This document shows positions 21,867 through 64,000 of a stretch of 64,000 nt of DNA, piece after piece. How positions within the stretch are numbered: position 1 is the stretch's first letter; every line of letters starts with the position of its first letter. The position numbers and the translations under genes were made by a program. The stretch is from Catajapyx aquilonaris (Eukaryota). The stretch lies in assembly GCA_000934665.2 (NCBI GenBank), contig JYFJ02001452.1:1-64000 (forward strand), in the 5' to 3' direction. The notes under the pieces are model-generated. The model made no database searches and was not told the origin of the DNA. It was given only the letters and a program-made list of their open reading frames with translations.

Positions 21867-21906
<40 letters not shown>
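21867..21906. repeat. (AG)20 microsatellite
   Basis: Perfect dinucleotide run. Confidence 0.95.
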
Positions 21907-21911
<5 letters not shown>

Positions 21912-38803: not shown

Positions 38804-39280
38804 TCATGGAACCATGATGTGCGGCGCCGAGAATAAGACCGCGATAGTGGCAATGATGGTGAACAAGGTGAAGATGATGAGGCACATCCTGTCGACCACC
38901 ATGGCGGCGAACTTCCAGTCATTGGTGATCTCCGCGGCTTCGTCCTCCTTGCGCATCTTGTCCGTGATGACCCGGAGCTCCTTGAGGATGAGCGAGAGCT
39001 CCCGGTGGGCGCACACGCAGCTGTGCACTAAGGCTGGGTCCTCGTGGGAGCTTCCCCCGACCCGGATAAAACCCCCGGTGGTGTGCGAAGACTGCAGCGT
39101 GGCCTGCCGGAAGTCGTCGTCAATGTCCAGCACGTTGGCCAGCAGGCTCTTCGACGAGCGCTCCTTCAGCTCCAACTCACGCATCTTGTTGTTCATCGTT
39201 ATAGTCTTCCGGGTTATCTTCTCGCCCGGACGACTCATCCGCAGCAGCCACGGAAGCCACTGCAGGAAGAGAGCCTTGAT
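38804..39280 (-). CDS. nAChRalpha6/nAChRalpha7: nAChR terminal coding exon (477 nt including stop): intracellular loop and TM4
   Basis: Acceptor ttccag|ATCAAG; reads [15 protein letters not shown]...[17 protein letters not shown]...[17 protein letters not shown]...SAPHIMVP then TGA (38806-38804). Confidence 0.96.
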   Translation of the reverse strand: MKALFLQWLPWLLRMSRPGEKITRKTITMNNKMRELELKERSSKSLLANVLDIDDDFRQATLQSSHTTGGFIRVGGSSHEDPALVHSCVCAHRELSLILKELRVITDKMRKEDEAAEITNDWKFAAMVVDRMCLIIFTLFTIIATIAVLFSAPHIMVP

Positions 39281-45200: not shown

Positions 45201-48200
45201 GATCGGACAATGGCCCTGCTTAAATGTATGTTAGTATGTCATTTTTAAGTATATAAGGTGGAATTTTCGTGCCACTGCTAGTCACTGCTAACTTAGCACT
45301 GCCAACACCGGCACTGCTAAGTTAGCAGTAATTAGCAGTAATACGACAATTACACCCATGCACTTTAACTACAACACATCCGGTAATGTTATGGCAAACT
45401 GCACGTAATGCACATTATTTTTGTACTGATGTACCTTATGCTAATCATTTGTAAGAAAGCAATTATTGAGTGCAACCGGGTGAAAGTTAGCGGCTGACAC
45501 ATAATTAGCAGTTACCGTTATAGCCTTGGTCCATTGTATGGCCAGAGGACATGACACCCCCCAAAAAAACCATTAATGTGTCTTTTATCAGGACCGGATC
45601 GAAATGTCACTTTCCATTAAATATGTAATTTTATTTTTCCGCCAGGTCTGTTCCCAAATAATGAGTCGAATTACACGTGGCACGTTATTTCGCATCGCCT
45701 GCCAGCGGCCTAATTGCACGTAGTTATGTAGTAATGCGGCCCGTTTCCGTATAAATATATCCGGGTCGCCGGACATACGCCCTTTTCTTACAGGCGGAGT
45801 TAAAATGCGGAGGGTAGCCCGGATGAATGGCCATCTCCCCAGGTGGCCAGAATTCCTTGTTTTCCGGCGACAAGCAGTACCTCCAAAGTGCATTGTGTCG
45901 TTCTGGGAGCATCCTCCGCGTTTAATTATCCCAACCCGGACCGAAGTAATTACGCATGGAAATGAAAATATTTGTCCTGATGCCGCATTTCCCCCGGAAT
46001 GAAAAGAACTCTCTGCCTCTCGGGCCACTACTGCACACACAGTAGTTACGTATGACTTGAGCCCGTATCGGCCAAAGAACATAATTTGCCCTGAAAAAAT
46101 ATATTGTCCAAACAGTAAACAATAATGCGCACAAATTCATAGAATTATAGAGTCGGACGAAATATATTTTTTGTGACATTTCAATAGCTTGGGCCAGAGA
46201 ACGAAAGGATTTCGAAGGCGTCAAAAGTAATAGCGATTTTTTTTTTCCAGGAGAAAATCTGCAGGTTATCAGCACCGATGGAACTATCAGTCATGGCGGG
46301 CTCGTAATCAATTTAGGCACTTGAGCCTTATTTCGGTTATCAGCTGTGCCACGGGCCTGAGCTAACGTCCCACTTTTGCAACCAACTGCAGCTGATCCCC
46401 TCAATATCGGCTCACAAAATTAATGAGAGAGGACGTTGCACTCGCTCGTTTTCTGTTTTCCCGATCGCTCCTTTTTGCTACGGCGTTTTCTACCCCTCCA
46501 GAAACTAAATCAAGCCGTGTCTGGCAGTGCAAACACGGGCCAGGCACTTAGAAACATCGAGGAGTAACTTTCCAAGTCAAATATAAACAAGGCTGACGGC
46601 CAGAGCATGCATTTTTTTATAAAGTGGAAAGAAGATAGAACGTGTGACTCACCCAAGGTGTCATTTCGTGCGTGTCGGAACTCCTATGATGGTAGTTGAG
46701 GATGAGGATGGTCGACACCACCGACGAGGCCACCATAAACATGATGCAGTTAAAATAAGTACCTGTATCACGAGATGGGAGGGAATAATAAAGAAAGGGA
46801 GGGAAAAAAATTGGGGAATTAATGGTTGGGTACAGCGACATTTGTCATCAAACAAGTCACTTTTTTTTCCATGCTTGTGAACAGAACGTTCAAAAAAAGG
46901 ACAAGTCTACAATCACTGCCTGATCTCAACTGTGAGATGACACCACGCCCGAATAAAGGAACATGGTTGGGGAGATGGCACATTTGATGACGTGCCTGGT
47001 CAGATTGGTCATGCAAACAATTTTTGGTCTGTCAGAGCGGTAGCTTGAAAATAGCCTTGCGTGCGTTTTCTTTTAAAAGTTCCAAGGCAGAAAAAATAAC
47101 TCTACAGAGAACCATACTAGAAGGCAATGCCCAGAGAGTTCTTGAGACTACCGCACCGTTCCAACAGTGATCTGGAAGGATGCAGGATCCACACATGGGC
47201 TCTCAGGCAGGCTATCAGCGAGGATTGAAAAAAAATTGGAGTTGAAAAAAGAGCTCATGACAGACATGGGAGTGGGCAAGGATTTCATGTCTCCACGAAA
47301 AAAATGCCAAATCGGAAGAGAGAAAAAAAAATCGCGAGAGAGCAAATATAAAGACAAGAGGGCTATATAAAAAGGGGTCGCGGACATACGTGTTATATAG
47401 TTACATATGTAGCCGGAACATTTCCGTATAAAATCCTTGCCGCTCACATCCGCACAAGGCAGCTTGAGTGGATTCAAAAAACGAGAAATGCAAAACTGCA
47501 AGACTTAACTCGGCAAGCACGATACTTTTGCACATGTTTCATGCCGGCCAGGAACGTATAACTCGGTGTACATCAAATGCAACACGCTCCAGTTTTCAGT
47601 TCCCAGCTATGTAAATATAATCACCTATCTCTGTCACAACATGCGTTAAATCCATCAAAATGTCAAGACACCATCACCCCCGAAAAAAAGTTCGCTATAT
47701 GCTAAAACATGAAAGAATTATGGAAGAAGAGCACAACCATTTGATACTTGGAGGCAGAGGGGAAGGGGTATCTTTAGTCACGCAAAATCTGATTCCTCCG
47801 TGAATTATGATTCAGAATTGTGGTAAATTCGTGGTATAAAAAGAGCAAAAGAGAATTCTCTTTTTTTCAAAAAACGTGAGAGAAGAATATGCCAATAATA
47901 AAAAACGACGGATCTGTAATCAAAAAAGTACTGGACGGGAGACCTTCATTTCTCCGCACTTGTCTGCAAAAAAGAGCAGTTAAGCTGACAAAAACTACTG
48001 TAAAAATACCCTATTTTCGTCTTATTGGCAAAGGGAAGGCTACAACTCCGCCTTCTCGAATTATTATAAGGTTTAAAAAGAGAGCGCATCGCTGCTGGCA
48101 TGTGGCTGTACTTTTTTATTACTTATCCTAACTATAATATGGAGGTGTGCCATACAGAAATACAATAAAATATTATAATCCTGTAAAAGTCACTGTTGTG

Positions 48201-51200
48201 TAATCCCATGTTAATATAGCATGATTTAAAAACACAACAACAGCGAAAAAAACAACAAAACGTCAAAAGAGGTTGGCGCCCAAAAACACCAACGGGCGAC
48301 GATTATTAGTAGCAAGAATACACATCGTATAACATTATTACATAGTGTGGAAGCAGGCAGAGACTCAAGCTGAGGCAAACTCAAAGCAAATGGCTGTTAC
48401 ATAATTCAGAAAGCAATCTTGATACGCCCAAGGAGCATATGGCCTGCTCCTCGAGTATTATTTCCAACTCATGTCTCTACCGAACAGGTTACTATACTAC
48501 AGATTTTGCTGCCTCCTACAGCACACACTTGAAAAAAGGGGGTAGCCTCTATAATAATAAACAAATATGCAAAAAGCGAGATTTGGGTGGATAGATACAA
48601 GGGGGGACCTAAGAGAGTCGCGACGTCGGGAACTGCGCAAAGCCTCAGCGGTCACAGGAAAATAGTAGAGAGAAATATAGAGGGGGGAATGAGAGGGAGA
48701 AAAAGAGAGTCACTCCTGAAATCAAGGGCAGTCAAAAATGGTATAAATGATGGCCATAGTAAAAAAAAAAACATTCAAAATATTGCTTTCCGGAAATATA
48801 ATGGCTGGGACGAAAAACCACACACACATGACGCACAACCGGCCCATATTTTTCATGTACAAAAAAGTGCAATATCTACCATCCGTCGAGAGCTCATCAA
48901 AAGCATGATCGTGTGGAGAGAGCAAAAGTATATAAAAAAGTACACCAAAAAATACGGGCAGCAGCCAAAAAGGGGAGGTCCAGCTGGCTGAAGACCCGTC
49001 TGACGATGGCGAAAGGAGCTGAGAGAAAACAGACAGAAAAATAGAGAGCAGAGCGGAAAAATAGGGGCGACAACAACACGACACCTGGCAGAAGGCAATA
49101 CCTAGAACGGGCAGCGCGTCAGACACCTGGGGGAGCGTCTCTGCTACTAGGTTATGGAACACGGTCAGAGATAGAAGGATGGTAACTCCTGAAATAAAGA
49201 AAGACATCTGTATCATTAAAGCTTCTCCTCAGGATAAGAAAGGCGTCCCAGACAGACAGACGGAGAGGTAGAGAGAGTGAGAGAAAAAGGAAACATCGAG
49301 AAGTGGTGGTGGGGGGACAGTATCTACTAATGGTCAGCCTCAAGCACGTCAAGTCAAGTCCTATTCTCCCCAATCCAAAATACGTCGAGTCGAGCATCTT
49401 GACGTGTTCAGGGCCGGACCGAAATGACTAGAAGGAAATACCAAGCGAGTGGAAGAGATGTACTACGATGCACAGTAGAGACGGCTCTCAACATATTCTA
49501 CACGAGAAATCTACAGGGGAGTGTGAGAAAAGTTCCTGGTACAGAGTGTTATGAAAAATAAATGAGAAAAAACAAATGGAAAGAGAAAAAGTACGAACAT
49601 GCATGATGGTAAAAATCAGCAATGAAACCGTGGTGGTTAGGAGATGTATCGTTATTATTTCTCGTTAATTATTTCTGTAATTCAGGTGCCCTTTTGTCGC
49701 TCTCGTGGACATTATCAAAAAGACAGTGCGTAGAGATATGAAGATTGCAAATACTTGCGCAATTTGTCGGGTCAGTCAAACCTATGTCGTCAACCCGCGT
49801 GAATGGGGTCAAGTGTGTGGGTACAGTACTTGTGGTGGGTATGATTATACCCGCCATCGCCTGTCTGCAACATATCAAAACACTGTTATATCAGTCGGCA
49901 GGCCGTCCATCTGAAAGAGGTTAGATTTTGTCGCCTTTTTTTTTGTTTGTTTGTTTGTTGTTCGGGAATCCTTCAGGTTCCGGTCACCCCCTGTAAGCAA
50001 ACCAAGTGATATTCATGCAAGGCACACCTCCATCTGTGTTGGGGAACCGCGTGCATGCTTCCACCCCTTCTCTCTCCCAAGTATCCAGAAGCCATGTGAG
50101 AGATGGCATGCGGCTGGCAATCAGGCTTCAGACCACATCATTCCAGGTTTGTGGGTAGTATATACACAGTCACAAAAACAACCAAATAAATATATGTACA
50201 TAAACAGCAGACGGGAACCCGGTTGCCTGCAGTGACCCAGTCCGTTGCGGCTGGAAGGTACCCTGGTCCTCTCCTTCTCGAAACTGAGTCACCTGTGTTC
50301 TCCCGGGGGTCAGTGGTTGGAAGGAGAGGGCCGGGTGCCCTCAGGTCATGAGGCCAACAAAAGTTCGACAGCCGCAACCGGACGGGGTCACCATGCACAG
50401 CCCTCATCCGACTCATGGCTTCTCCCGGGGGGGAGACATACGTCACATTCGGTCATAATTATATCTCTAGCGAGTATATACAGTTAATGATAATAATAAT
50501 ATACGGAAAATCATATCTATAGCTGAGAGTAAGCTGGTTGCAGAAGGACGGAAAGAAAACGTGTCATGACTGCCTTTGTACACTACCTATCAAGGGCACA
50601 GCTTCGGAAGTGGTAGGCATGGACTCTGCCACCAGATTCAGGAAGACAGTCAAAGAGAGCAGAATAGTGATTTCTGTAACGGAAAAAGAGGATGAAGGAG
50701 AGGTCCAAAGCATGTTCTCAATTCAAGGACAGCGTCCTTGCTTCCATAGTGCATCTCGAATGTCATGGAAAATATTACATAATTTCTTTTTTTTCTCTTG
50801 TTACGTGTTTTGAAGGATTGCATTGGGATGAATAAACTGCAGCTTCGAAGCAGGAAGCAGGATATGGTCGCTGGAATATACGTATACTTTTTCCTCTTAC
50901 ACCTCGGAAAAATACCGTCTGCATAAGGACGACCGTCAATTACAAAAATTATGACAACACATGTTATAATCATAATAATACAAATGAAATGAACATAACG
51001 CTCTCGTGGGAATGAAAGTATATACAATGAAAGGTAAACGATAAGTAGTATGCCTTTGAGTCGAGATTGAAATTTCACGGTTGTTGTTCTCACGTACTCA
51101 CACACTCATGCTTCCGAAATTCTTTAAAATTTAAAACAATTAAAAAAAACATGTAGACGTAAGCGCAACTTCTCGTCGGAGAAGAGGGAACGAAAGTCCT

Positions 51201-52730: not shown

Positions 52731-52771
<41 letters not shown>

Positions 52772-55700
52772 GCACGGTAACGACTCGGGGAAGGAGGATA
52801 AGGACTACGAGAGTCCAACTCTTGATGGACCCGTAGTCTCTCATCGGCTATATGCATATAATATATTTTGGTTGTCATGCAATCATGTCCCATCTCATTC
52901 CCCTCTGTGCCTCTAGAGGTAGCAAATGGCCGCTCTAGCATCCTCTACAAGGTGTACAGTACCTAATAAAGGCACAGCGTCCGATGTGGCTGGCATGGTC
53001 TCAGCGACCATGTTTAGGAATACGGTAAGGGAAAGGAGAACTGTAACACCTGCAAAACAAAAGGACATTCGAACTGTGATGCAAAGGGTGAGAAAGCGAT
53101 GCATTCAGAAAAGAAATTGGCGTCTCCAAAAAATGTGATGTCCTCTATTCTCAAAAAGGTCATCTCTAAGGCGCATTCCAAGGGAGCATAATAAACTCAT
53201 TGTGGAGGTGGCATAAAACAAAGGGTCACCTGGGTCGCACCCAGTTTCCAGTTGTCTCTCGACGGCACCATAAAACTTTGCATATATTATAATATAAGGC
53301 TACGCTTAAGTAAATTACCATGTCAAAAATAGTTGACCTACATTAGTGAGCATGACCCACGACCTACAATACAAACATGAGAGGGTGGGGAGGAAGAAAG
53401 AAAAGTGGGCAAAAAAGTCGTCACTCAATCCTTCTCCAAAGACATCGACTTATAGAAAGACACTTAACTATGACGAGTCATCTCCATGACATTCGAGTGG
53501 AAAACAAGCGAATCCCAAATCTAAAGCAAGTCAGAAAACAAATCAAACTCTCAGCAGGGGGAAGAGAGAGTCACTGGGAAGCAGCTTGGCTGAGAAAACG
53601 CGTCATGTTTTGTAAACTCCCGCTCCTTCAAAGGTTAAATGCTCGGAAATAACGAGACTCAAGCATCGGAGTCTCTGAAGAGAGGAAAAATACTCTCCAT
53701 CTCTCTCTCTCTTAGTAAAGTGGCATCCTTGGGCCCTGCGCGTCTTCTTTTCGTGCTCGAGCTGGCACTGACTTGGAGTTGATAGGCAAGGCAATTCATC
53801 TTTTCCACGTTTCAAAGAGAGGGCTCAATCGATCATCGGCAACTCCTTACTGAATGACCTGGATCAATGTGCATAATGACTCCTCAGAAAAGTTTACTTC
53901 AGCCGCTACTTTACCGACACAAACATTTCTTCAATGCTCCCGGAGTTACATATAAGAAAAAGCTGCGGTTTGGACTACCATTTTTAAGTTTTAAAAAATG
54001 TGCCTCAGCTTTAACGTACTTTATGGGAACAAGTGTGTATTTCCTTCATGTTGTTTTGAAACTTGCTTGGAATGATCATGCATTGATATACAGTTGGATT
54101 ATGAACGAAACACAAACATCGTATGGACAACAATTTTCATAAGCAGCTTTGGCACATTTTTTTTTTTTTTTTTTTTGCAAATCATCCCAGTGACTTGACT
54201 CTTCCCAGTAGCGTACACAAAACTAGAGCATGCCACATTTTGACTGCACTACGCCAAACATACTGCAGTCAAAATTTTATGTCACAAGAAAGCAATCCAA
54301 CACTCTTAACCACGATGAATACCAAGATGAAAAAGATATAAACATATACATGAGGAAAAAAAAATATAATCATATAGTGTTAATGAAGCCTCATGATTAT
54401 TCTGAGGGGGAAAAAAGGTGCCTCATGAAAACTCTTCCTGAAAGGGGGTCAATTTAAAGCTGTGATGTATTCAAATGCTCTTACCTGTATATATTATTTT
54501 TTTGTTTTAAAAGAAAACAAATGCATAACATTGTGGATAAGGGGGTTATGTAACACATGTAATATTTTTTTGCCTGCATTCAAATTTGATCGGGGGGGAT
54601 ATGTAAACGTGGGGAGGGTATTTTGTGGGTGTCACGAGGAAGCGTGCCTTGTCATACTCGCCAGTAACATTTTTTTTGCATTAAAGCGTCACTGCTCGGG
54701 TTTAAACACTTTGGATGGCTCCGACCCAAATTCCACATCGAATGACCTTTTTTACCATCATGTACTGCGGATGGTTCATTTTTTTCCTCTGTAAAATTAT
54801 CCACGTGATTTTGGTCATTGGCAGTACATCGCATGTTTGGAAAATTGAAAACGGGATGAATTTTGTCCTTCGCGCAGCGCCGCTTTAAACCACTCATTAA
54901 ACGCCTCTACATCATTAAGTCGTACTTACACACTAGGTTAAATTAGCAATTTGGTTCGGTCAACAAATGGCAGACATAATTAATCCAGGTCCGATCAGCG
55001 CTACACGTGCGGTATGATGAAGCCGAAACGTCTGAATATTTTACGTATCTCCCAGTGAACCACCACGGTTAGTACTGACAACGTTACCAGTCAAAAACTT
55101 CATTTTTGTTTTTACCGCTCAGTCTCATCTGGTCCAAAAGTGAGCAAATTTTGGCATAGTACAAACACGATCGAATTGGCTGCAGTGGACATGCGGTAGT
55201 AGAGAAAGAGCTTGTATTATAATCAGGGCGTGCAGAGCACAGGAGCTACTAGAGTGCACAGAACTTCACGAAGAACGTAAGATAGACAGAAGAGGGGAGA
55301 AGTTGGCTGCCGCTCATTCTGCAGGCCGACGACCATCTCATTTTTTTAAAAAAACAATTAATTCTGGCAACAATAAGATGGTCGATGGCACCCTCATTTG
55401 TAAGAACCCACTGAATGGCTGCGCAAGATTTCCCAGACCTGAAGTGGAAATAATTTTTATTTGAAACAGATCTTAAATGATTCCCAGCATGAAATGGCAA
55501 CAAACTTTCATCTCCATACTCGGGCAGCTTCTGCGCTCCCCGATTAATTTGAAAATATCGACCCTTCACACAAACCCAAGTCACGCGACACAGTTTCATT
55601 TAACTCGAATGCCACCGAATATCGGTTTTCTCCCGGACCTACCGCATTCGTAAAAAGCAGGGGATGGGGCGGGGAACGCCTGCCCTGTAAAAAAAAAAAA

Positions 55701-58700
55701 ATCCTCATTCCAAACGCTTACATCTCGCCAAGGTAAACCTTTATCCCGCAAAAAAAGAACCGGTACCATCCCCTAAAAATTCATGCTATCGGCCCCCTCC
55801 AAAAAATAGGTCGGATCAATAGGTCCCTGCCACAATAATGATCCTCACCCTGCACCCGGAATGGGGCATCCGGAAATGGGGCACAGCCATACTTATCCAG
55901 GAGCAGAATGAGCGCCCTTGCCCGTATATAGACAGAACCAGGATATGTGAATATGCAACTGGCAGGGGCACAGCCAACAACTATACCTATCGTCAGCTTC
56001 TCGCCGCACTCGTGAGGAAGGGTGAACCCTAGTAGTGTCATAGAGGCGATCATGACGCAGGGGATTATCAGATTCACCATGTAAAAAAGGGTTCGCCGAC
56101 GGATATGGATGGTGTAAGTTACGTCAATGTATGGCTCGGGGCAGCACACGTAGAAGATTACGTTCTTTTTCACCGGCACAGCTGGAATATGCCACAATGA
56201 TTTTTTTTTTCGGGGGGGGCGGGGGGCGGTGGGTGGTGGGTGGTCGTGAAAAGAAATGGAAAAGAAATACCATGGGGCATGTAAATATCAATGCACAGAC
56301 AAACAAGAAGACCAACAAATATATGGATGAATATGATATTTAAAAAGACATGGATATGTAACAAACCAAACAAGCCATAGACAGGTAACTACTGGCAAGC
56401 GAATGGCCATACCTAGGGAAAGTTTTTCTCCCGAGTCCGGTGGCAAGGTAAAACCAAGAACAGCCATGGAGGCGATGAGAACACATGGAACGATTAAGTT
56501 GAAAAAGTAGTACAAAGTCCGCCGACGGATAATTATTGTGAAAGTAATGTCTACATAAGGTTCAGGGCAGCATTGGTAGAATATTACATTCCTTTTGCCA
56601 GGCACACCTGTAATGGAGAAAGAGGTGGAAGAAAAAAAAATCGGCGTAAATATAAAGTCGCCGGCAGCCAAGATGAGCTGAAAAAAGCAGACAAAATTTT
56701 TCCAAAACAAAACAGAAACAGAAAAAAAATATTTGTTATTTTGTGGCTCTGCTCTCCAAATATGTATCAAACGTCGCGAGGAAAACGTTGCTCTTTTAAA
56801 ATGTCCACAATTATTTCAAAAAAGAAAATTCGGCGAAAAATTCCAGGAAATTTGAAGAGCGGAAACGGTTCTAAAAGGAAAAATGGACCACCAACAGAGT
56901 GATAGAGGATTTCTTTTTAAAAATAGACGCATTTTGTTCATAATATACTTTCAGAATAATTAGTCACCATGTCTTCATATTAATGAATGGGAAATTAAGC
57001 AATTTAATTAATAACTGTATGTAATTGCCCTCATTACAATTATGAGCAAAATGCCTGCGACTGGTGACCGATTGCCGTGAAAGAAAACCATTTTAGCTCG
57101 TAAAGACCCCAAATAGTTCCCTTTGACTTGTCACCAGTACTTTTGAGAGAAGAAGGCAGTGGACAGGACAAACAGGATCGGAGTGTGCCCTTAGGAAAAC
57201 TTAATAGACAGTGAGGGGATGAAATGGATGGAAACTGTGGGGGGAAGAAGGGTAAATGTTTCAAACGTCGGACGGACCTGACTCAGGCTCTCTGAACTAA
57301 AGTGAACTCTTCTGAATGAGTCCATGCAGCCTCCGAGAGTATTGATTCGAGGGGAGGGAATAGGGTGGGTGGGTGGTAGAGTGTGGATGGGGATGGTGTG
57401 GGTGGGGAAGAGAGTTGAGCAAACTGTGGGGGGGAGGCTGCTGCTTTTCCAACACACTAAAACTACCTTTCCTTGCCATCTAGCGAGGCGGATTCAACTC
57501 TGCCTCTGCTATGTAACAAACATCCGCGCCCTCAAACTTTGAAACTACGTAACTCCTCTCTGAACAAAGCGGGAGAATTAGTTTGGCCACCGACAAAACT
57601 TTTTTTTATAGTTTAAAAAAATTAGTTTAAACTACAGATCGGCTACGCTCTGCTGCGCTTTTGAAAAACTGTCATGCATGAACTAAAAATTTGCACATGG
57701 AGTAGAAAGAGATTGTGAATAATTGAAGTGGGTTCGAATATTTTTGCACCTGCAGGACCAGTTTCCATCAGTTCATAAAAATTTGCAAATGCATATAAAC
57801 TGACATGAATAGTAAAAGGCCGTATCTGGACTGTGAAATAATGCTCAATTATACTATTGAGTGTTCCTTTTACTCTACTTAATGCGAATCTTTTACTAAC
57901 CAGTGCAGAAATGATCTGCAAGTACGTATATTTAAGTTGTGTACAAACTGCAACCTGCATATATACATTTTAGGTAATGAAATTCAAACCTGTCGATATG
58001 TACGATCACATCAAGCATACAGTAACTACTAAAATATATGGCACACCCTGCTATTACCAGCTTGATAATTCAGCGCATTTGCACAATATTATTATTTTTT
58101 GTCCTGATGGAATATCACACCTTTTTGAGTGATGTTGCTAACTTCTTGCCTTACGAGAGAGAGAGAGGGGTAGTAATGTAATCTTCACTGACGTAAATTG
58201 CTCCTTTGGTTATTTCGGAGCGGAAAACTTTTCTCTCTGCAGTGAGTGTCAGTTTGAGAAGAAATGCGATTACTTTCCAAGTCACCTTGAACGAAGTGAC
58301 CGTCTGATGGTTGAAGCTATCGGCAGGCCCCATCAAATGCAATTTCTGGACCTGGGCACAAATATATCCGAACTTCTCCAGAAACATATCTCCAAGATCT
58401 GAGACACTGAATTAGATATTGCCTCCAGTGAAAAAACGAGGTTCGAGGAGAGATCGACGACCTCTCCTCTTGCAATTTAAAATTTAAACTGAAATGACGC
58501 CAAAACTCATGCATGACCTGGGAGGACTTTTGTGTTTATTAAATTTTGCGAACTGTTCCTTCACTTGGAAGAAAAATAGGGCGCGAGCCAATGGTGTTTG
58601 CGCCTGGACTTTCTCCTCGAGGAGAGTCCCCGTCTTACCGATGAGGTCCCATTCTCCATTTGTGATGAAACTGCTTATGTCGCCTCCGTCCTCGCTCTGC

Positions 58701-61700
58701 AGCTGCAGGTCCAGCTGCAAATTCAAAGCGGGGGCCTCGTTATTACAAACCTGCTCTAATTACACATCCCACTCAGTCGCCTGCAGTGCCTGAAACATTT
58801 TCCAAAATCCGCTTCTGCGCTGGTCATGCGTCAAAAGAAAGGACATGGGAACGTTTTAGGCGACTGATGTGGAATATTTTGGATGGGAGGAACACACACC
58901 GTGTATCCAGACAACCATGATTAAGTGGTATTCTTTCTCTTCCCACCCTCCCCATCCCAATCCCCCTCGTCTCTTCACATATTCAGGAAATACGACTTCA
59001 ACATACAGTATAAACTGAAAGAGCTGTCTTTCGAATAAAAGCCTAAGTATATGCAGTCCTCATGCATTCTTTCATGTACCTTCAAAATATACACACACAT
59101 GCACGTTCATTGTTAATGGGAAAATAATACGCTGCAATCAAGAGAAAAATGTCTAACTATTGCATGTCGTATGCAAATACGTCCAAAATATTCTTTCAAA
59201 CATCATTTCACACCATTGATGTGACAGTTTACTGGAGAAAAACACCACGTACTCTGTACTGTAGCATAAACCTCACTTGATCATCAAATTGTGCACTATA
59301 TTAACTAACTTGTTAAATGTACAGTTCCAATACATACTTGTTACGTATGTCAAAATCTTACCAGCAGAGATAACGTTTATCTGTAGTGGTTTTTTTAAAA
59401 AAGAAAAAAAGTCAAAACCTCTGCGCCAAAATTTCGGCGAAATATGCACATTGGATGTCTTCCTATTCCAATATCTCGACTTTTTTGGCCCCCACCCCCC
59501 AAAATGCCGCTGCAAAAAATAAATCTTAAAAATACGAAAATATATGACGTTATATCTTTTCATAGAACGCAGTACAAACGCCTCCTGATCCGGCGAGATT
59601 ATCCTTTTCCATTTGTATCAGTTGAGACACTGAAGCAACTTGTCCAACACTATAATTATAACCTTCCTCTATATGTAGGTCTGCGTGTAATTTTCTCCTT
59701 GCAAAAACATGTCAGACGCGCAATTTCCTTAAGCACACAAAACTCGCACACTGCCGTTGTCGCAGTTTAAAGGGGCAAAGAAACCGTCAACTCAAGCGTT
59801 GCTTCAATGTTCGTTCAAGTCTGACACGTCGACAAAGTGAAGGCCCAAAAGCAAACATTTTCCGCGCCCCCAAACGTCGAACTTCTGTTATATACTGTAT
59901 ATAAAAATATATAGATATATATTCCTGTTGGTTTTCTCTCTCTCGGTTTTTTTTTTGTGATACACACTAACACTACTCTACCAGTAAGAAATTACATGTT
60001 CTACCTCGAAAGTGCTTATACCTGGAAGCCATCATAAGTCCAGCTACCAAACTTCATGTCACAGCGCTGATCGTCAAAGGGGAACCACGTAATGTCTATC
60101 TTGCATGTGCTCTTGAAGATGCCCGGCGGAACGTACAAGCAGCTACCGTTATTTCTGACCACAACATTTGTGGGATAGGTCCCGTCGAAACCCTCATCGG
60201 CACTTGCAGGAAAGGTGGGAAACAAGGGGTAAGTATAACGGTTTACTTTTTTTTTCTTTTTTGCACGGTTAGTAAACAGAACAACACAGACTGCCCTATA
60301 AATGCAGGGGTGGAATATTAGGTGAGAAAAGAAACAATTTACGTTCCACTATAAGAGAATAAGTGCACTACTCAACCGGAGGGGGGATAAAGATTAAAAA
60401 TGTCGACTTTTTTTAAAAGAACAGGACAGAAGAAAAAAAATGGCCAGTTTTATGTCAAGAAAAATCAACCCAGCCCCAGAAAAACTCAAAAGGTTGCACA
60501 CCGAAGAAGAAAAATAGAAGAAAAAACGAGAGAGAACAGCTATCAAAAAATATAGAGATTTAAAAAAAATAGAGTTCAGAGGAAAATTGTGGACAAGAAA
60601 AAAAAAAACACCGAAGCAGCCAAAACCACGTATTGGGCTACACGATACGCAGTTCATGGGACTATCACCAGGCGACCATCACCCCACATGGAAACACAGG
60701 ATTTGGTGAGTCCGCTGGGGAGTCACCTCCTGCGCCTCAACCGCTGTGTTTCCAGCAAGAGCGATTCTAACTTGGAAACATGGTGGCCCAACAACAACGG
60801 CATCTGGCCATCGTACATTGTCACCGGGCAGGTCACAAAAAGATCAGAGCCAAAAGTGAGTTTCCCCTTTACGCATGATATGATATTGTATAAGATATGT
60901 GTACTGAACGAACTGCTGCACCAGACAGCTCGAGCTTCAGTTTTACCCCCGACTAGTTGGTTTGTTCGCCATGGGAGTTCGCTATTTCCAACCCCATGAC
61001 TCGCAAACCCTTCAGCTAATATTAGATATCACCTACTAAGGACAATAGTTTTAAAAGCAATATTTCTGCAAAATTATGTCTAAAAGTCTTGGGATAGGAA
61101 GAGAGTGTGAGCATTTCCTTTTTCTTTCTTTCTCTATGATTTATGGTGCCGCTCACAACGTCTGACTGGACAGTACTTGTACTGGGTGTCACTCCAGCTC
61201 TGTCCCAGCACAAATCAAACCACTTCCTCCACCTAACACTACTTACATTTGTCCTGACCAGTCCAGTAATTAATTGGTTCGGCGACATCAGACGTTACCT
61301 TTCTTTCGACCATCGGTTGCATATCCTTTCGTAACACAACTTCAGTTGCATCGGTCTCGAAATGAAACTGCAGGTGTGGAAAACGATACAAACGAAACAA
61401 AAAAGGCGCAGTCGTTCACTCCAGCAAATGTGACACACTCAAAAAGGGTTTACTTTTACTCGCATTAAGCGGAGTAACAAATACTCTACAAAGCAATCAG
61501 GAAACATTCGCTTGTAATTTGTACAGTGGGCGTCCCCAGTTAAATTCGAGTGTCTTTTGCACATGTGTCTGGACAATTAACAAATCTTTGTACTCGCATA
61601 TGTGGCAAAAAAAAACCTACTTGCGATACACCCTGTACTACTGGGCGCCAAACATGCATATCTTGTTTTGGTATCAGAAAAAAATCCTATTCACCCTCCG

Positions 61701-62944
61701 CCAGTTCTCTCACACACTTTTTTTTCGCAGGGACGTCCAGAATTTGACGGTATCTGTACTTCGAGCGGAGATAAAACCCGGGTTCTCTGGCGCCCACAAA
61801 CAAAAGGAGTCCGAAGGCCATTGTGTGGATTCACCGTTTGAATTAATCGCCATTGAACTGACACACACATAAAAGTAGTCTGGCGTTTTGACTTGGCCGT
61901 CGCATGTCTGTAAACTTTTTCCGAAAAACAATGGGGTTGTCCAGCGAGTGCATAATATGCGCCTGGGAAATAGAATAATCAACAAAATAGTTTATAGGAA
62001 GACTACAACAAGTTGGTCGAAAGGAAAGAAACAGCACATCGGCCAGAGACATGTTCACACGTTCTCACCCATCGCACCTCCTCGCGTCCTCTTTCGCATA
62101 CCATCTAAAACAAAGCATTACAACTAGACTAAGAGTAGGGAGGCTTACCTTTCCCATCACATATAACAAGACAGTTATATACCGAAGGCCATCAATATGT
62201 GGCCGAAATAGGAGGTGGCACACACGCAAGACAGGAGCGGCCAGGGGCAAAACTGAAGTCTGCCGAGTTGGAAGCCATAAGGCTACATACCAACAGTCCT
62301 TTGGCTACAACTTTTGGGCTCCCAATAAGCCTCGTCCCCTTCCACGGTGTCCCTTGTTGCTGGCTTGCCAACTGAACAACTGGCCACACTAAACTTTTCT
62401 TTTTTTTTGTAAGTAACTACACAGCAGGGGAAGGAAAATCATTGCTGAAACACAAAGTGTAACTGTTTTCTCTCGAATATTTAAAAAAATGGTATCTGTA
62501 TAAAAAAAAAGAAATTGAGACGAACATAGTCGTAAAATTTATAGGGCAGAGTACAGGCTAAATAAATTTTAAGTATACTTTTCAAATCAAGTGAGCTACA
62601 ATTTTGTCAGTTGAATTACGTTCAATGCATATTTATCAGGGGAGAGAAATGGTGCGGGTTAATTGTTGGACACTCCGCACTATATCTCCATCCTGTATTT
62701 ACGTGTAACTGCGATGTCATTAGGCAGCCGTTCACAAAAATTCTGTTACGTCTTGCAGCTTCCTATTGTCATCGCGGATGCAACTAAGATCACGTGATGA
62801 GAGACAACGGCACACGCATGCTTTTTGGCCATACCTGTTGTACATGAGCACATCGGGTTTCCAGATGCGATGCGGCGGTATCCTAAGATCCTTCACCCCA
62901 CCATATTCAGACACGTTCCACCGGAGATTCACGTCGTTCCATTC
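38804..62944 (-). CDS. nAChRalpha6/nAChRalpha7: Nicotinic acetylcholine receptor alpha subunit, alpha7 class (insect alpha5/6/7 group); spliced, 5'-partial (exon 4 to terminal exon)
   Basis: Exons join in frame at GT-AG boundaries: 62944-62835, 60202-60022, 58714-58639, [56607-56413 or 56181-55987], [53049-52963, 52156-52073, 50673-50587 or 49188-49102], 46762-46653, 39280-38804. The product has [10 protein letters not shown] (loop A), the Cys-loop [20 protein letters not shown] (loop B), vicinal YxCC (alpha subunit), the GEK cation filter and TM1-TM4. The alpha6 versus alpha7 orthology is ambiguous. Confidence 0.97.
44871..44912. repeat. 9-bp tandem repeat (CTCCCTTCC), about 4.7 copies
   Basis: Direct reading; explains the REGREG and PSLPSL low-complexity ORFs. 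Confidence 0.9.
45257..45356. repeat. Palindromic (foldback) element with ~47-bp imperfect arms, MITE-like, in the last intron
   Basis: Left arm GGTGGAATTTTCGTGCCACTGCTAGTCACTGCTAACTTAGCACTGCC versus right-arm reverse complement GGTGTAATTGTCGTATTACTGCTAATTACTGCTAACTTAGCAGTGCC, with a ~6-nt spacer. Confidence 0.8.
46653..46762 (-). CDS. nAChRalpha6/nAChRalpha7: nAChR exon 9 (110 nt): (G)[36 protein letters not shown]
   Basis: Acceptor tacag|GTACT, donor TGG|gtgagt, phase 1 to 0; TM3. Confidence 0.96.
48609..48715 (-). pseudogene. Decayed fifth copy of exon 8 (pseudo-exon or poison exon, 107 nt)
   Basis: Acceptor atttcag|GAGTGACT mirrors that of 8-4. It starts (G)VTLFFSLS and ends AVPDVATLL(G)|gt in another frame, with GCT GAG GCT TTG (AEAL) between. 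It has a net +20 nt, frameshifts, an in-frame TGA and a weak gtcccc donor. Confidence 0.6.
49102..49188 (-). CDS. nAChRalpha6/nAChRalpha7: nAChR alternative exon 8-4 (87 nt): (G)[28 protein letters not shown](G)
   Basis: Acceptor atttcag|GAGTT, donor CTAG|gtattg, phase 1 to 1. Confidence 0.86.
50228..50397. repeat. Nested GC-rich inverted repeat (stem-loop) between exons 8-3 and 8-4
   Basis: Outer stem GTGACCCAGTCCGTTGCGGCTG (50232-50253) pairs with CAGCCGCAACCGGACGGGGTCAC (50369-50391); inner stem 50257-50277 pairs with 50320-50339. Confidence 0.8.
50587..50673 (-). CDS. nAChRalpha6/nAChRalpha7: nAChR alternative exon 8-3 (87 nt): (E)[28 protein letters not shown](G)
   Basis: Acceptor ttacag|AAATC, donor ATAG|gtagtg, phase 1 to 1. 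Absent from the ORF track in this frame, so translated by hand. Confidence 0.88.
52073..52156 (-). CDS. nAChRalpha6/nAChRalpha7: nAChR alternative exon 8-2 (84 nt): (D)[27 protein letters not shown](G)
   Basis: Pyrimidine tract then ccgtag|ATGTA, donor ATAG|gtaaac, phase 1 to 1; one codon shorter than the others, frame intact. Confidence 0.82.
52731..52771. repeat. (ATCA)10 microsatellite between exons 8-1 and 8-2
   Basis: Perfect tetranucleotide run. Confidence 0.95.
52963..53049 (-). CDS. nAChRalpha6/nAChRalpha7: nAChR alternative exon 8-1 (87 nt): (G)[28 protein letters not shown](G)
   Basis: Acceptor ttgcag|GTGTT, donor TTAG|gtactg, phase 1 to 1; TM2 and M2-M3 loop. Confidence 0.93.
55987..56181 (-). 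CDS. nAChRalpha6/nAChRalpha7: nAChR alternative exon 7B (195 nt): (A)[64 protein letters not shown]
   Basis: Acceptor ttccag|CTGTG, donor ATAG|gtatag; same length and phase as 7A, no stops or indels, YxCC and GEK retained. Confidence 0.88.
56413..56607 (-). CDS. nAChRalpha6/nAChRalpha7: nAChR exon 7A (195 nt): (G)[64 protein letters not shown]
   Basis: Acceptor tacag|GTGTG, donor CTAG|gtatgg, phase 1 to 1; loop C with vicinal Cys, TM1, canonical LPPDSGEK. Confidence 0.95.
58639..58714 (-). CDS. nAChRalpha6/nAChRalpha7: nAChR exon 6 (76 nt): [25 protein letters not shown]
   Basis: Acceptor ttgcag|CTGGAC, donor ATCG|gtaaga, phase 0 to 1; loop F with NGEW motif. Confidence 0.95.
60022..60202 (-). 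CDS. nAChRalpha6/nAChRalpha7: nAChR exon 5 (181 nt): (S)[60 protein letters not shown]
   Basis: Acceptor tgcaag|TGCC (uncommon AAG), donor CAG|gtataa; contains the Cys-loop and loop B; phase matches exons 4 and 6. Confidence 0.96.
62835..62944 (-). CDS. nAChRalpha6/nAChRalpha7: nAChR exon 4 (110 nt): [36 protein letters not shown](S)
   Basis: Acceptor ccag|GAATGG, donor AACAG|gtatgg, phase 0 to 2; loop A motif. Confidence 0.96.
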
Positions 62945-64000
62945 CTGGTCATAGATTCAGACAGTTAGTTAACAAATTCTGATACCCCGAGCACTCCTAG
63001 GACGCAATTGCCTCACTTCATCTTTCCATTTTTCAAAAAAATTATTAGCTCAAAGTTTGCTCCGTATTTATATTATTCCAGAGGCAAAGATTCCTGGAGC
63101 GCTGAACAACAACGACTACGAAAAGACATCCAGGATGCAAGAGTAATTATAAAATAACCGAGTGATAGATGTAACAAGTTAATTGTAAAAACCGCGGCCA
63201 GACAGAAACGCACAAGGCGACAGAAAATAGCGACATCCATTTTCTCTGTGATTTGTGTGTTTGCAACCGCTTTTTGGTTATTATATCTCCCCCGAAGATT
63301 GATGTGCAGTATACTTCAGTGCAACTGATACGATCCGTACCTTTCCGCATCTATAATGGAAACACACAACCCACAGAGGGCAAAAAACATAATAATCCCA
63401 CAGACTGTAAAACAAAAAGGCCAGAAAAAAATATAGTAGCAAAATTTTTTCCATATACCGATCATTTTTTATATCACAAAAGTCACCCAGTTATAAAAAC
63501 TAAATCTATCTAAAACACGTCAGGTCTACAGCTACACAAATCGTTTAGATGTGTTTTCAGTTTGTGAAATGTTTAAAAAGCACATGTATACAATGCAGTC
63601 TATATGCTAGTTAACATTTACCTCAGGCAATTGCTTTCAGCAATTGCTTGAATTACCCATTTACAAACAAAAACATCTTAAAACAATCAACTCCGTTTGT
63701 AAAAGGTAATTTTGCTAGATGCCTACACAAAACCCCAAAATGCTTTTTGGTTGAAAAAACTCAAAAGTTAATGCAGTACTGCTTCCCTCACATTGTACCG
63801 CAAAACCAAAAAACAACAACGCGATAACTCAAAAATTTAAAAATAAACGAATGACCGGTTTTCGTCAGGCCCAAAAACTGATGAAAGCCACGGTAGAGAA
63901 AGAAAGCAAACTGCAACAGTCGCCTCCTCAGAACTGATCAGAAACCTAAATCAGAAACCGATACAGGCCTGTTTATGTAACAATGCAATCCCTGACATTT

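What the first reader, a model, noticed from the sequence alone, without database searches (positions are those of the whole stretch)
38804..62944. Mosaic alpha6/alpha7 identity: possible pre-duplication state of insect alpha5/alpha6/alpha7
This compares the window with Drosophila sequences from memory, not an alignment. Exons 4-6 (RIPPHR, YDGFQLDLQLQ), 7A (GVPGKRN, EKLSL), 8-1 ([18 protein letters not shown]) and the TM4 region look alpha5/alpha7-like. 8-3 ([11 protein letters not shown]) and 8-4 ([12 protein letters not shown]) match alpha6 exons 8a and 8b. 7B (A.P.KKN, EKLT) and RPG.KITRKTI...ELELKERSS also look alpha6-like. Inference: an ancestral gene carried both exon types as splice alternatives, and insect paralogs later partitioned them after gene duplication.
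Basis: inference. Interest (0 to 1): 0.78.

Follow-up and report, generated by a model that had tools for sequence, protein, structure and literature searches.

The report
Alpha7-type nicotinic receptor gene, alternative exons
This is an ordinary arthropod alpha7-type nicotinic acetylcholine receptor gene with two interchangeable copies of exon 7 and four of exon 8, the same layout as in insect and crustacean alpha7 genes, and not a relic from before the alpha6/alpha7 gene split.

Summary
The minus strand of 38804-62944 holds exons 4 to the stop codon of a nicotinic receptor alpha subunit. It has 2 tandem copies of exon 7 and 4 of exon 8. All have AG/GT sites, and 8 of 8 combinations give an open frame.

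The quoted motifs are present. The "mosaic" reading fails. Every constitutive exon is closer to insect alpha7-type genes than to alpha6. The gene sits inside the alpha7-type clade (99/96).

Termite, locust, stick-insect, cockroach, bug and louse alpha7 gene models carry the same 7A plus 7B pair. They also carry exon-8 types matching 8-1, 8-2 and 8-4. The same species hold a separate alpha6 gene. Decapods, an isopod, amphipods and barnacles share 7A/7B, and barnacles also have an alpha6-like gene. So insects did not partition the exons between paralogs.

The alpha6-like loop motif is ancestral: it also occurs in myriapods and in crustacean alpha7-type genes.

Alpha6 exons 8a/8b/8c and the alpha7 exon-8 types correspond in type and in order (AU p 0.03). 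This suggests the exon-8 cluster predates the gene duplication.

RNA contigs show 7A joined to 8-2 or to 8-3, and each of these to exon 9.

The parts
62835..62944 (-). Exon 4 ([10 protein letters not shown]...LMYN, loop A region); first coding exon inside the window
   Evidence: AG/GT sites, 110 nt. RNA joint 60202-62835 in run X6. 35-36 of 37 residues match insect alpha7-type rows against 28-31 of 37 for alpha6.
60022..60202 (-). Exon 5 (Cys-loop: C, 13 residues, C)
   Evidence: AG/GT sites, 181 nt. Run X5 has a contig joining 60022-60106 to 58637-58714 with 0 differences. 58-59 of 60 residues match polyneopteran, odonate and mayfly alpha7-type rows against 52-56 of 60 for alpha6.
58639..58714 (-). 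Exon 6 ([26 protein letters not shown])
   Evidence: AG/GT sites, 76 nt. RNA joint to 7A in run X6, 56605-58637 with cut +2.
56413..56607 (-). Exon 7A (loop C with YxCC, TM1, GEKLSLG)
   Evidence: AG/GT sites, 195 nt, phase 1. Pfam PF02932 hit. Lies in the 7A clade at 99/93. RNA joints to exon 6, to 8-2 and to 8-3.
55987..56181 (-). Exon 7B, alternative to 7A (…[37 protein letters not shown])
   Evidence: Same length and phase as 7A, AG/GT sites. Groups with exon 7B of insect alpha7 gene models at 100/97. Covered by an X6 RNA contig, 55986-56188 with 5 differences; its splice partners were not in the part of the table shown.
52963..53049 (-). Exon 8-1 (TM2, ...[19 protein letters not shown])
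   Evidence: 87 nt, AG/GT sites. 28 of 29 residues match the commonest insect alpha7 exon 8. No spliced RNA joint among those shown.
52073..52156 (-). Exon 8-2 (TM2, 28 residues, ...[20 protein letters not shown], first codon gives D)
   Evidence: 84 nt, AG/GT sites. 27 of 28 residues match the insect alpha7 exon of the same type; the pair has support 99/94 and 94/79. RNA joints to 7A and to exon 9 in run X6.
50587..50673 (-). Exon 8-3 (TM2, E-ITILL...[19 protein letters not shown])
   Evidence: 87 nt, AG/GT sites. 27 of 29 residues match alpha6 exon 8a and 26 of 29 match a barnacle alpha7-type exon. RNA joints to 7A and to exon 9 in run X6.
49102..49188 (-). Exon 8-4 (TM2, ...[20 protein letters not shown])
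   Evidence: 87 nt, AG/GT sites. 28 of 29 residues match the insect alpha7 H-type exon, 27 of 29 the decapod one and 26 of 29 alpha6 8b. Clade support 100/93. No spliced RNA joint among those shown.
46653..46762 (-). Exon 9 (TM3, [26 protein letters not shown]...)
   Evidence: 110 nt, AG/GT sites. Joints to 8-2 and 8-3 in run X6. The loose end at 46653 reads on into the start of the last exon with 2 differences in 30 letters. 32-34 of 37 residues match alpha7-type rows against 27-29 of 37 for alpha6.
38804..39280 (-). Terminal coding exon (TM3-TM4 loop, TM4, stop codon at 38804-38806)
   Evidence: Open frame of 158 residues. Pfam PF02932, E 4.6e-16. Best database identity 74%, in decapods.

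Best explanation
The window holds exon 4 through the stop codon of the ortholog of the arthropod alpha7-type nicotinic acetylcholine receptor subunit. This is the group that holds non-dipteran insect alpha7 and, according to PMC12309072, Drosophila alpha5.

The gene carries two clusters of tandem, same-length, same-phase alternative exons. There are two copies of exon 7 (loop C plus TM1 plus the GEK ring) and four copies of exon 8 (the pore-lining TM2). One copy of each is spliced in per transcript. That gives up to 8 subunit variants from this part of the gene, differing in pore-lining and gating residues.

The apparent alpha6/alpha7 mosaic is an effect of shared ancestry. Alpha6 and alpha7-type genes arose by duplication in the pancrustacean stem, from a gene that probably already had several exon-8 types. 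Both daughter genes kept them. The 'alpha6-like' loop motif is the ancestral state, which winged-insect alpha7 later lost.

Shown here: the exon anatomy, the orthology of each exon, and the gene's placement in the tree. Partly shown: one-at-a-time use of the exons (8-2 and 8-3 only). Inferred: the functional differences between variants and the way mutual exclusion is enforced.
For: Anatomy
- 11 exons have AG/GT sites.
- 8 of 8 exon-7 by exon-8 combinations give one open frame with a terminal stop.
- There are exactly four exon-8 loci (E 3e-14 or better); the next best match has E 0.049.

Family
- Pfam PF02932 hits.
- Cys-loop and YxCC motifs are read directly from the sequence.

Orthology
- Per-exon identities favour the alpha7 type in exons 4, 5, 6, 7A, 8-1 and 9.
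- The alpha7-type clade that holds the window has support 99/95 (37 rows) and 99/96 (25 rows). It includes the named alpha7 of Leptinotarsa, Cotesia and Colletes.
- The AU test rejects insect alpha6 plus hexapod alpha7 as one clade with the window outside (p 0.003).

Shared exon clusters
- 21 of the 27 top hits P0122-P0148 hold two exon-7 units by pattern match, and 2 more do by eye.
- These include Periplaneta, Cryptotermes, Zootermopsis, Schistocerca, Anabrus, Timema, Nilaparvata, Rhodnius, Polyplax, Sipha, Armadillidium, Trinorchestia, Panulirus, Macrobrachium, Homarus and Amphibalanus.
- Timema read-through models give the exon-8 order 8-1, 8-2, H-type (8-4), SL-type.
- The window's 7B groups with insect 7B at 100/97, and 7A lies in the 7A clade at 99/93.

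Separate alpha6 genes
- Separate alpha6 genes exist in the same insects (Cryptotermes, Lycorma, Periplaneta, Timema, Hetaerina, Anabrus).
- Barnacles have alpha6-like genes (P0410, P0426; 96/85 with insect alpha6).

RNA
- Run X6 has joints 6-7A, 7A-8-2, 7A-8-3, 8-2-9, 8-3-9 and 4-5. Run X5 has 5-6.
- Run X5 (same organism label) also holds a second, roughly 92% similar exon-5 transcript. It is flanked by IWRPDVLMYN and LDLSLQSEEG. In the protein set, that exon-4 ending occurs in alpha6 rows and one horseshoe-crab row, and in none of the rows labelled alpha7-type (21 hits).
Against: - The strictest test is not significant. Holding all 38 other pancrustacean alpha6 and alpha7 rows together with the window outside costs 25.5 log-likelihood units, but AU p is 0.062.
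- The clades tested were named after trees had been seen.
- The organism's genome is not held, so a separate alpha6 gene is only hinted at by two 10-residue loose ends.
- The ostracod (Cyprideis) row moves between the alpha6 side and the alpha7 side.
- The joints shown give no spliced-RNA evidence for 8-1 and 8-4 and none for the partners of 7B (10 joints were not shown). Most X6 contigs are only 90-95% like the window, so they may come from a close relative.
- Many of the 'two exon 7' proteins are automatic read-through gene models, not sequenced transcripts.
Confidence: 0.85

Rival explanations
1. The gene is a surviving pre-duplication form whose alternative exons were later divided between insect alpha5/alpha7 (7A, 8-1) and alpha6 (7B, 8-3, 8-4).
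For: - 8-3 and 8-4 resemble alpha6 8a and 8b (27 and 26 of 29).
- The loop motif KITRK is shared with 18 of 18 alpha6 rows.
- The window's exon copies do not group with each other.
- The tree with the window outside all other pancrustacean genes is not formally rejected (AU p 0.062).
Against: - Insect alpha7 models keep 7A plus 7B and the 8-1, 8-2, 8-4 and SL types, so nothing was partitioned.
- 7B groups with alpha7 7B, not with alpha6 exon 7 (100/97).
- All constitutive exons are closer to the alpha7 type.
- The clade that holds the window has support 99/96.
- AU p 0.003 against a hexapod-only duplication.
- Barnacles have both genes.
- The loop motif is also present in myriapods and in crustacean alpha7-type genes.
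- There is a hint of a second, alpha6-like transcript in the same organism.
Confidence: 0.06
2. The gene is an alpha7-type ortholog, but the likeness between its exon-8 copies and alpha6 8a/8b/8c is not inherited from one ancestral cluster. It would come instead from independent tandem duplications followed by convergence on a few workable TM2 sequences, or from gene conversion between paralogs.
For: - Only 29 columns are available, and most forks are unresolved (18 of 30 open, 23 of 40).
- AU p 0.030 is only just under 0.05, and the group was named after the tree had been seen.
- TM2 is under strong constraint.
That could allow gene conversion.
- Chelicerate, flatworm and annelid models also have tandem copies, so such duplications may recur.
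Against: - Three type-to-type matches occur in the same order along both genes: MPxTS type, then TLPQVSD type, then SL type.
- The TLPQVSD clade spans both genes at 96/94 and 93/95.
- Alpha6 8c is nested among alpha7 SL types.
- The exon 3 pair is likewise shared by alpha6, insect alpha7 and a tick's single alpha6/alpha7-like gene (PMC13578988, passages).
Confidence: 0.25
3. Some of the copies (7B, 8-1, 8-4) are unused relics in this organism, and the gene makes only the 7A plus 8-2 or 8-3 forms.
For: Only the joints 7A-8-2 and 7A-8-3 are among those shown.
Against: - All copies keep open frames, exact length and phase, and AG/GT sites.
- They are 78-97% identical to orthologous exons of distant taxa, which implies purifying selection.
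- 7B is covered by an RNA contig.
- 10 joints were not displayed.
Confidence: 0.08

Closest known systems
Insect nAChR alpha7 ('alpha7-like group', which per PMC12309072 also holds Drosophila alpha5); e.g. the named alpha7 of Leptinotarsa, Cotesia and Colletes in the database
   Same: Same clade (99/96). 85-86% identity over the constitutive exons. The same 7A/7B pair and the same 8-1, 8-2 and 8-4 exon types in the same order.
   Different: The window has an 8-3 exon (E-I start, ESMPTTSE) that I did not see in insect alpha7 models but that resembles decapod and barnacle exons. It lacks the SL-type exon of insect alpha7. Its TM3-TM4 loop keeps the ancestral GEKITRKTI...NNKM stretch, which winged-insect alpha7 has replaced.
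Crustacean 'alpha-7-like' genes with many predicted isoforms (Panulirus, Macrobrachium, Scylla, Pollicipes, Amphibalanus; automatic NCBI annotation)
   Same: 7A/7B pair, multiple exon-8 alternatives including the H-type, and the same loop motif.
   Different: Decapods show at least 6 exon-8 types, some of them very divergent. The window's constitutive exons are closer to insect sequences.
Insect nAChR alpha6, the spinosyn target, with mutually exclusive exons 3a/3b and 8a/8b/8c (PMC1919356 sections 6 and 11; PMC2064938 passages)
   Same: Sister gene within the pancrustacean clade. Tandem exon-8 cluster with matching types and order. Shared loop motif.
   Different: Alpha6 has a single exon 7 and no 8-1 or 8-2 types. 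Every constitutive exon of the window is less like alpha6 than like alpha7. The window lies outside the alpha6 clade.
Single alpha6/alpha7-like subunit of ticks and parasitiform mites (PMC12979025 and PMC13578988, passages)
   Same: Same wider clade. The tick gene has exon 3a/3b alternatives, and spider and tick gene models show tandem exon-8 copies.
   Different: These branch, together with myriapods, before the alpha6/alpha7 split (98/92 and 99/95). They, and not the window's gene, are the candidates for a pre-duplication state.

Membership tests
[quoted passage not shown] | Cys-loop (two Cys separated by 13 residues) in the extracellular domain | tested here: met
   Exon 5 reads [15 protein letters not shown].
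[quoted passage not shown] | Vicinal cysteines (YxCC) in loop C, which define an alpha subunit | tested here: met
   FYQCCPEPY in 7A and FYVCCPEPY in 7B.
[quoted passage not shown] | Transmembrane region profile (TM1-TM4) and GEK motif before TM2 | tested here: met
   Pfam PF02932 on 7A (30.1 bits), on 7B (28.0 bits, just under the 28.1 cut-off) and on the last exon (60.2 bits). GEKLSLG and GEKLTIG are read from the sequence.
[quoted passage not shown] | Complete gene with signal peptide and exons 1-3 | not testable with these tools
   No exon 3-like frame in 62945-64000. Exons 1-3 lie beyond the window, and no genome is held.
Arthropod alpha7-type (alpha7-like) orthology group | Groups with named insect alpha7 to the exclusion of alpha6 in a rooted tree | tested here: met
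   99/96 for 25 rows with spiralian, chelicerate and myriapod outgroups; 99/95. The stricter AU test gives p 0.062, which is not significant.
Arthropod alpha7-type (alpha7-like) orthology group | Shared exon clusters: 7A/7B pair and exon-8 types 8-1, 8-2 and H-type | tested here: met
Arthropod alpha7-type (alpha7-like) orthology group | Neighbourhood with the beta1 gene, reported for several insects (PMC12309072, passage) | tested here: not met
   tblastn with the beta1 half of P0147 finds only the alpha7-type exons within the window. The reported distance in the beetle is 474 kb, so a 64 kb window cannot decide this.
Insect alpha6 orthology group | Groups with named alpha6 (Drosophila, Bombyx, Bactrocera and others) | tested here: not met
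   The alpha6 clade (100/97, plus barnacle alpha6-like at 96/85) excludes the window. Per-exon identities are lower.
Mutually exclusive exon cluster | Tandem homologous exons of equal length and phase with intact splice sites | tested here: met
   7A and 7B are each 195 nt. The exon-8 copies are 87, 84, 87 and 87 nt. All have AG/GT sites and phase 1.
Mutually exclusive exon cluster | Transcripts hold exactly one copy per cluster | tested here: inconclusive
   X6 contigs join 7A directly to 8-2 or to 8-3, and each of these directly to exon 9. The other copies are not seen in the joints shown. Contigs cannot give frequencies.
Mutually exclusive exon cluster | A mechanism that enforces exclusion, such as docking and selector RNA pairing | tested here: inconclusive
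   Duplex scan of the introns: the best 'weakest of three' energies were -27.6 and -27.8 kcal/mol against a minimum of -25.2 and -24.7 in 150 shuffles each. The pairings are low-complexity purine/pyrimidine tracts.

The most novel reading that the evidence does not exclude
The exon-8 cluster held at least three TM2 types, in the order MPxTS, TLPQVSD, SL. Together with the exon 3 pair, it already existed in the single alpha6/alpha7 ancestor in the pancrustacean stem, and both daughter genes inherited it in the same order. If so, the cluster is older than the gene duplication. The alpha7-type gene, not alpha6, would then keep the fuller ancestral set (2 exon 7 copies by 4-5 exon 8 copies).

Tandem exon-7 copies in annelid gene models and tandem exon-7 and exon-8 copies in flatworm models would allow an even older, protostome-wide origin.

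My five searches of the open-access library and the passages I read describe alternative exons only for alpha4 and alpha6, not for alpha7.
Probability: 0.45. Interest if true: 0.5.

Novelty: new member of a known kind. Interest (0 to 1): 0.3.

Why it matters
For this window, it matters little. The gene is one more ortholog of a gene whose many isoforms are already predicted automatically in insects and crustaceans.

The comparison does bring out a point that the receptor papers I could read do not state. Outside the holometabolous model insects, the arthropod alpha7 gene carries larger alternative-exon clusters than the well-studied alpha6. These clusters affect loop C, TM1 and the pore-lining TM2. 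The exon-8 types of the two genes also correspond one to one.

This bears on two questions. One is how receptor diversity is made in crustaceans and hemimetabolous insects. The other is which subunit variants non-target crustaceans expose to insecticides that act on this receptor class.

Tried and rejected
- Own-genome search for paralogs: no genome is held.
- Earlier notes of this scan: none by place or by sequence.
- The listing of cluster members, to name the unnamed JGI and Logan proteins: the database is switched off.
- The representative search with 7B returned mostly single-exon fragments (the top 150 of 4041 hits are listed). It was of little use for full-length trees. It did show 7B-like exons at up to 82% identity and gave the flatworm outgroup.
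- Exon 3 in 62945-64000: not found.
- A fifth exon 8 (SL type): not found. The best extra matches had E 0.049 and 0.13, taken as chance.
- Beta1 neighbour: not in the window.
- Pfam on the 10 longest other open frames of 1-38800: 0 families.
- Docking and selector RNA pairing: inconclusive, low-complexity pairings only.
- A-to-I editing: the T>C differences at 60149 and 60153 (A>G on the gene's strand) occur in contigs that differ at many other places too. They are better explained by a paralog or a relative, so no editing is claimed.
- Exon 7 relations among alpha6, 7A and 7B: alpha6 grouped with 7A in one tree (91/74) and stood apart in the next. I leave this unresolved.
- Rows left out before trees: P0323; 3 rows; 8 long or unnamed rows; 7 rows.
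The rows were then taken from the stored alignment instead.
- Parts of the window without RNA cover (8-1, 8-4) are not counted as evidence.


Full report
**What is there**

Reading the DNA at each place and locating the boundaries gives eleven exons with AG acceptors and GT donors:

| Exon | Coordinates | Note |
|---|---|---|
| 4 | 62944-62835 | |
| 5 | 60202-60022 | |
| 6 | 58714-58639 | |
| 7A | 56607-56413 | 195 nt |
| 7B | 56181-55987 | 195 nt |
| 8-1 | 53049-52963 | 87 nt |
| 8-2 | 52156-52073 | 84 nt |
| 8-3 | 50673-50587 | 87 nt |
| 8-4 | 49188-49102 | 87 nt |
| 9 | 46762-46653 | |
| terminal | 39280-38804 | includes the stop codon |

- All 8 of 8 combinations of one exon 7 with one exon 8 give an open frame with a single terminal stop.
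- A tblastn with 28 distinct exon-8 peptides finds exactly four loci (E 3e-14 or better). The next best match has E 0.049.
- No exon 3 lies in the 1056 bases upstream of exon 4. Exons 1-3 are therefore outside the window.
- The protein has a Cys-loop and the YxCC motif of alpha subunits, and Pfam PF02932 hits.
- No whole genome is held for this window.

**Expression**

One search found six runs, and three were laid.
- The RNA run X6 is an invertebrate metatranscriptome. Most of its contigs are 90-95% like the window, so it may represent a close relative.
- X6 has contigs with these joints: exon 4-5, exon 6-7A, 7A-8-2, 7A-8-3, 8-2-9 and 8-3-9. All lie exactly at the predicted sites.
- X6 also has a contig that covers 7B.
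- Run X5, which carries the same organism label as the DNA runs, joins exon 5 to exon 6 with no differences.
- So 8-2 and 8-3 are each used alone between 7A and exon 9. For 8-1, 8-4 and the partners of 7B, no joint was among those displayed (10 were not shown).

**Who are its relatives**

- The terminal exon finds 895 proteins (120 listed). The best are decapod, barnacle and mayfly 'alpha-7-like' proteins at 71-74% identity, with no self-hit.
- Exon 7A finds 1404 proteins (120 listed).
- The top hits score about twice what a 66-residue query can give, because they contain two exon-7 units in tandem. This holds for 21 of the 27 proteins P0122-P0148 by pattern match, and for 2 more by eye.
- These hits are alpha7-type gene models of cockroach, termites, locust, katydid, stick insects, planthopper, kissing bug, louse and aphid. 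They also include an isopod, an amphipod, decapods and barnacles.
- Their second unit (…[37 protein letters not shown] in insects) is the counterpart of the window's 7B.
- The same insect models carry exon-8 units that match 8-1 (28 of 29), 8-2 (27 of 28, including the one-residue shortening and the D at the junction) and 8-4 (28 of 29).
- Timema read-through models give the order 8-1, 8-2, H-type, SL-type.
- The same species also have a separate alpha6 gene: Cryptotermes on another contig, plus Lycorma, Periplaneta, Timema, Hetaerina and Anabrus.

**Is it a mosaic?**

No. Exon by exon, the window is closer to insect alpha7-type rows than to alpha6:

| Exon | vs most insect alpha7-type rows (mayfly, damselfly, termites, locust, most bugs) | vs alpha6 |
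|---|---|---|
| 4 | 35-36 of 37 | 28-31 of 37 |
| 5 | 58-59 of 60 | 52-56 of 60 |
| 6 | 21-22 of 25 | 16-19 of 25 |
| 9 | 32-34 of 37 | 27-29 of 37 |
| terminal | about 75% | about 69% |

The terminal exon is about 77% identical to decapod orthologs.

The 'alpha6-like' loop stretch ([11 protein letters not shown]…NNKM) occurs in 18 of 18 alpha6 rows. It also occurs in 11 of 12 crustacean alpha7-type rows and 2 of 2 myriapods, but in only 2 of 25 hexapod alpha7-type rows. It is therefore an ancestral state that winged-insect alpha7 replaced.

**Trees of the constitutive exons (317 columns)**

First set: 52 rows, P0323 left out, rooted on a protein later named as a flatworm alpha7.
- The window lies in an alpha7-type clade of 37 rows (99/95).

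Second set: 53 rows with spiralian outgroups, chelicerates, myriapods, the named alpha6 of Drosophila, Bombyx, Bactrocera and others, and the named alpha7 of Leptinotarsa, Cotesia and Colletes.
- Myriapods and chelicerates group together (98/92), outside a pancrustacean clade (99/95).
- That clade splits into alpha6 (insects 100/97, joined by two barnacle alpha6-like genes at 96/85) and alpha7-type (99/96, 25 rows).
- The alpha7-type side holds malacostracans, barnacles, Artemia, the window, a springtail with unnamed rows, and winged-insect alpha7.
- The window is sister to the hexapod alpha7 rows (92/80).
- The ostracod row is unstable between the two sets.

AU tests:
- Insect alpha6 plus hexapod alpha7 held as one clade, with the window and crustaceans outside: rejected, p 0.003.
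- All 38 other pancrustacean rows held together with the window outside: 25.5 log-likelihood units worse but not significant, p 0.062.
- Both groups were named after trees had been seen.

This agrees with published trees. Parasitiform mites have one alpha6/alpha7-like subunit without one-to-one insect orthology (PMC12979025, abstract and passages). Drosophila alpha5 groups with non-dipteran alpha7 (PMC12309072, passage).

**Exon 7 trees (64 columns)**

- The window's 7A lies in a 7A clade of 20 rows (97/92, then 99/93).
- 7B lies with insect alpha7 7B (98/97, then 100/97).
- Crustacean 7B units form their own group (96/88, then 97/89). They join the insect 7B group weakly (91/54).
- Alpha6 exon 7 grouped with 7A in the first tree (91/74) and stood apart in the second (88/82).
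- 7B is therefore not the alpha6 exon. Its T at the second pore position and its 'ISSM' are also found in myriapod and chelicerate exons.

**Exon 8 trees (29 columns)**

- 8-4 groups with the decapod and insect alpha7 H-type (99/95, then 100/93). That group joins alpha6 8b (96/94, then 93/95).
- 8-2 pairs with the insect alpha7 exon of the same type.
- Alpha6 8c is nested among alpha7-type SL exons.
- 8-1, 8-3, alpha6 8a and the myriapod exon sit in an unresolved comb.
- Holding the eight alpha6 exon-8 rows as one clade costs 28 log-likelihood units (AU p 0.030).

Read-through models show the same order of types in both genes:
- Alpha6: 8a ([14 protein letters not shown]), then 8b (ETLPQVSD), then 8c (SLLVAQ).
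- Alpha7-type: 8-1, 8-2, [8-3], [11 protein letters not shown].

The names 8a and 8b are confirmed by a database protein named Dalpha6 variant type V, which holds both in that order. Statements that 8b is invariant and that 8c replaces a conserved glutamate also fit (PMC2064938, passages).

The exon 3 pair is likewise shared by alpha6 and insect alpha7, and by a tick's single gene (PMC13578988, abstract and passages).

**A second paralog in the same organism?**

- Run X5 also holds contigs over exon 5 with 8 differences in 85-128 letters.
- Their flanks read IWRPDVLMYN (the end of an exon 4) and LDLSLQSEEG (the start of an exon 6).
- In the protein set, IWRPD occurs in 21 proteins. Those with a label are alpha6 or alpha6-type rows plus one horseshoe crab, and none is a row I had labelled alpha7-type.
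- This is a weak hint of a separate alpha6-like gene.

**How it works**

Shown: the exon clusters, and the single use of 8-2 or 8-3.

Inferred:
- One exon 7 and one exon 8 are chosen per transcript.
- By the standard TM2 prime numbering, which I recall rather than take from a call, 7A and 7B differ at the 2' pore position (S against T), in TM1 and next to the loop C cysteines.
- By the same numbering, the exon-8 copies differ at pore-facing and outer-ring positions: F for V in 8-2, H for L in 8-4, and ET/ES…P variants.
- Differences in conductance, gating and perhaps ligand response are therefore expected, as has been proposed for alpha6 exon 8 (PMC2064938 and PMC10906874, passages).
- All copies have lengths divisible by three, so double inclusion would not be removed by a frame shift.
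- The 7A-7B intron is 231 nt, which argues against steric exclusion. RNA pairing is a candidate mechanism, but my scan was inconclusive.

**Novelty**

- Alternative exons are described for alpha4 and alpha6 in the papers I read: PMC1919356 (sections 6 and 11), and PMC2064938, PMC12309072 and PMC10906874 (passages).
- PMC8471617, on cockroach alpha7, has no occurrence of 'exon', 'splice' or 'isoform' in its main text.
- Five library searches brought up no description of the alpha7 exon 7 and exon 8 clusters.
- Subscription journals and supplementary files were not seen, and automatic annotation already lists up to 42 isoforms for crustacean orthologs.
- The original Drosophila description (Grauso et al. 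2002) is recalled and was not read.

**Verdict**

This is an ordinary alpha7-type ortholog. The secondary idea that the exon-8 cluster is older than the alpha6/alpha7 duplication is moderately supported.

Noticed in passing
Proteins P0380 (Capitella), P0382 (Owenia), P0236 and P0374 (Macrostomum), P0233, P0234 (unnamed); Annelid and flatworm alpha7-like gene models also contain two exon-7-like units in tandem. One is a shared divergent type with RRRKLYYVFNL. A flatworm model also has two exon-8 units. Spider and tick models have two exon-8 units. Tandem exon 7 and 8 copies in this receptor class may be much older or more recurrent than the arthropod literature suggests.
   Followed up: partly
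Run X5 contigs over window 60022-60204 (records 14 and 15): A second transcript of the same organism label has a roughly 92% similar exon 5, flanked by IWRPDVLMYN and LDLSLQSEEG. It is probably a paralogous alpha6/alpha7-class gene, and the exon-4 ending is the alpha6 kind in my protein set.
   Followed up: partly
Contig lengths: Alpha6 and alpha7-type genes are reported on contigs of identical length, so probably the same chromosome, in Lycorma, Hetaerina, Anabrus, Schistocerca gregaria and Pollicipes. This would fit an origin by local duplication, or allow gene conversion.
   Followed up: no
window 49054-48998, minus strand, about 50 nt after the donor of exon 8-4: The frame that runs on from exon 8-4 reads [18 protein letters not shown]. 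This faintly resembles the SQ/SL exon-8 type that follows the H-type exon in insects and decapods (tblastn E 0.13). It is probably chance, but it sits where a decayed fifth copy would be expected.
   Followed up: no
window 60149 and 60153: T>C on the plus strand (A>G on the gene's strand) in RNA-derived contigs of X5 and X6 but not in the DNA run. It looks like editing, but the contigs differ at many other places, so a paralog or a relative is the likelier source.
   Followed up: partly
window 47771-47737, and 52945-52914, 52045-52033, 50086-50078: A pyrimidine-rich stretch in the intron before exon 9 can pair with purine-rich stretches 20-50 nt downstream of exons 8-1 and 8-2 and about 500 nt downstream of 8-3 (-26 to -37 kcal/mol). 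It is low-complexity and barely beyond the shuffled controls.
   Followed up: partly
window 1-38800: The 10 longest open frames have no Pfam family. There is one N at 9509, and short repeats: an AG run at 21867-21910, CCCTCCCTT x5 at 44869-44912 and ATCA x10 at 52731-52771.
   Followed up: no
Gene tree: The window's gene branches between Artemia and the springtail plus winged-insect alpha7 rows. Its exons 4-9 are 92-97% identical to winged-insect alpha7, while its loop is of the crustacean kind. The organism therefore looks like a lineage close to the base of the hexapods. It was not identified further.
   Followed up: no
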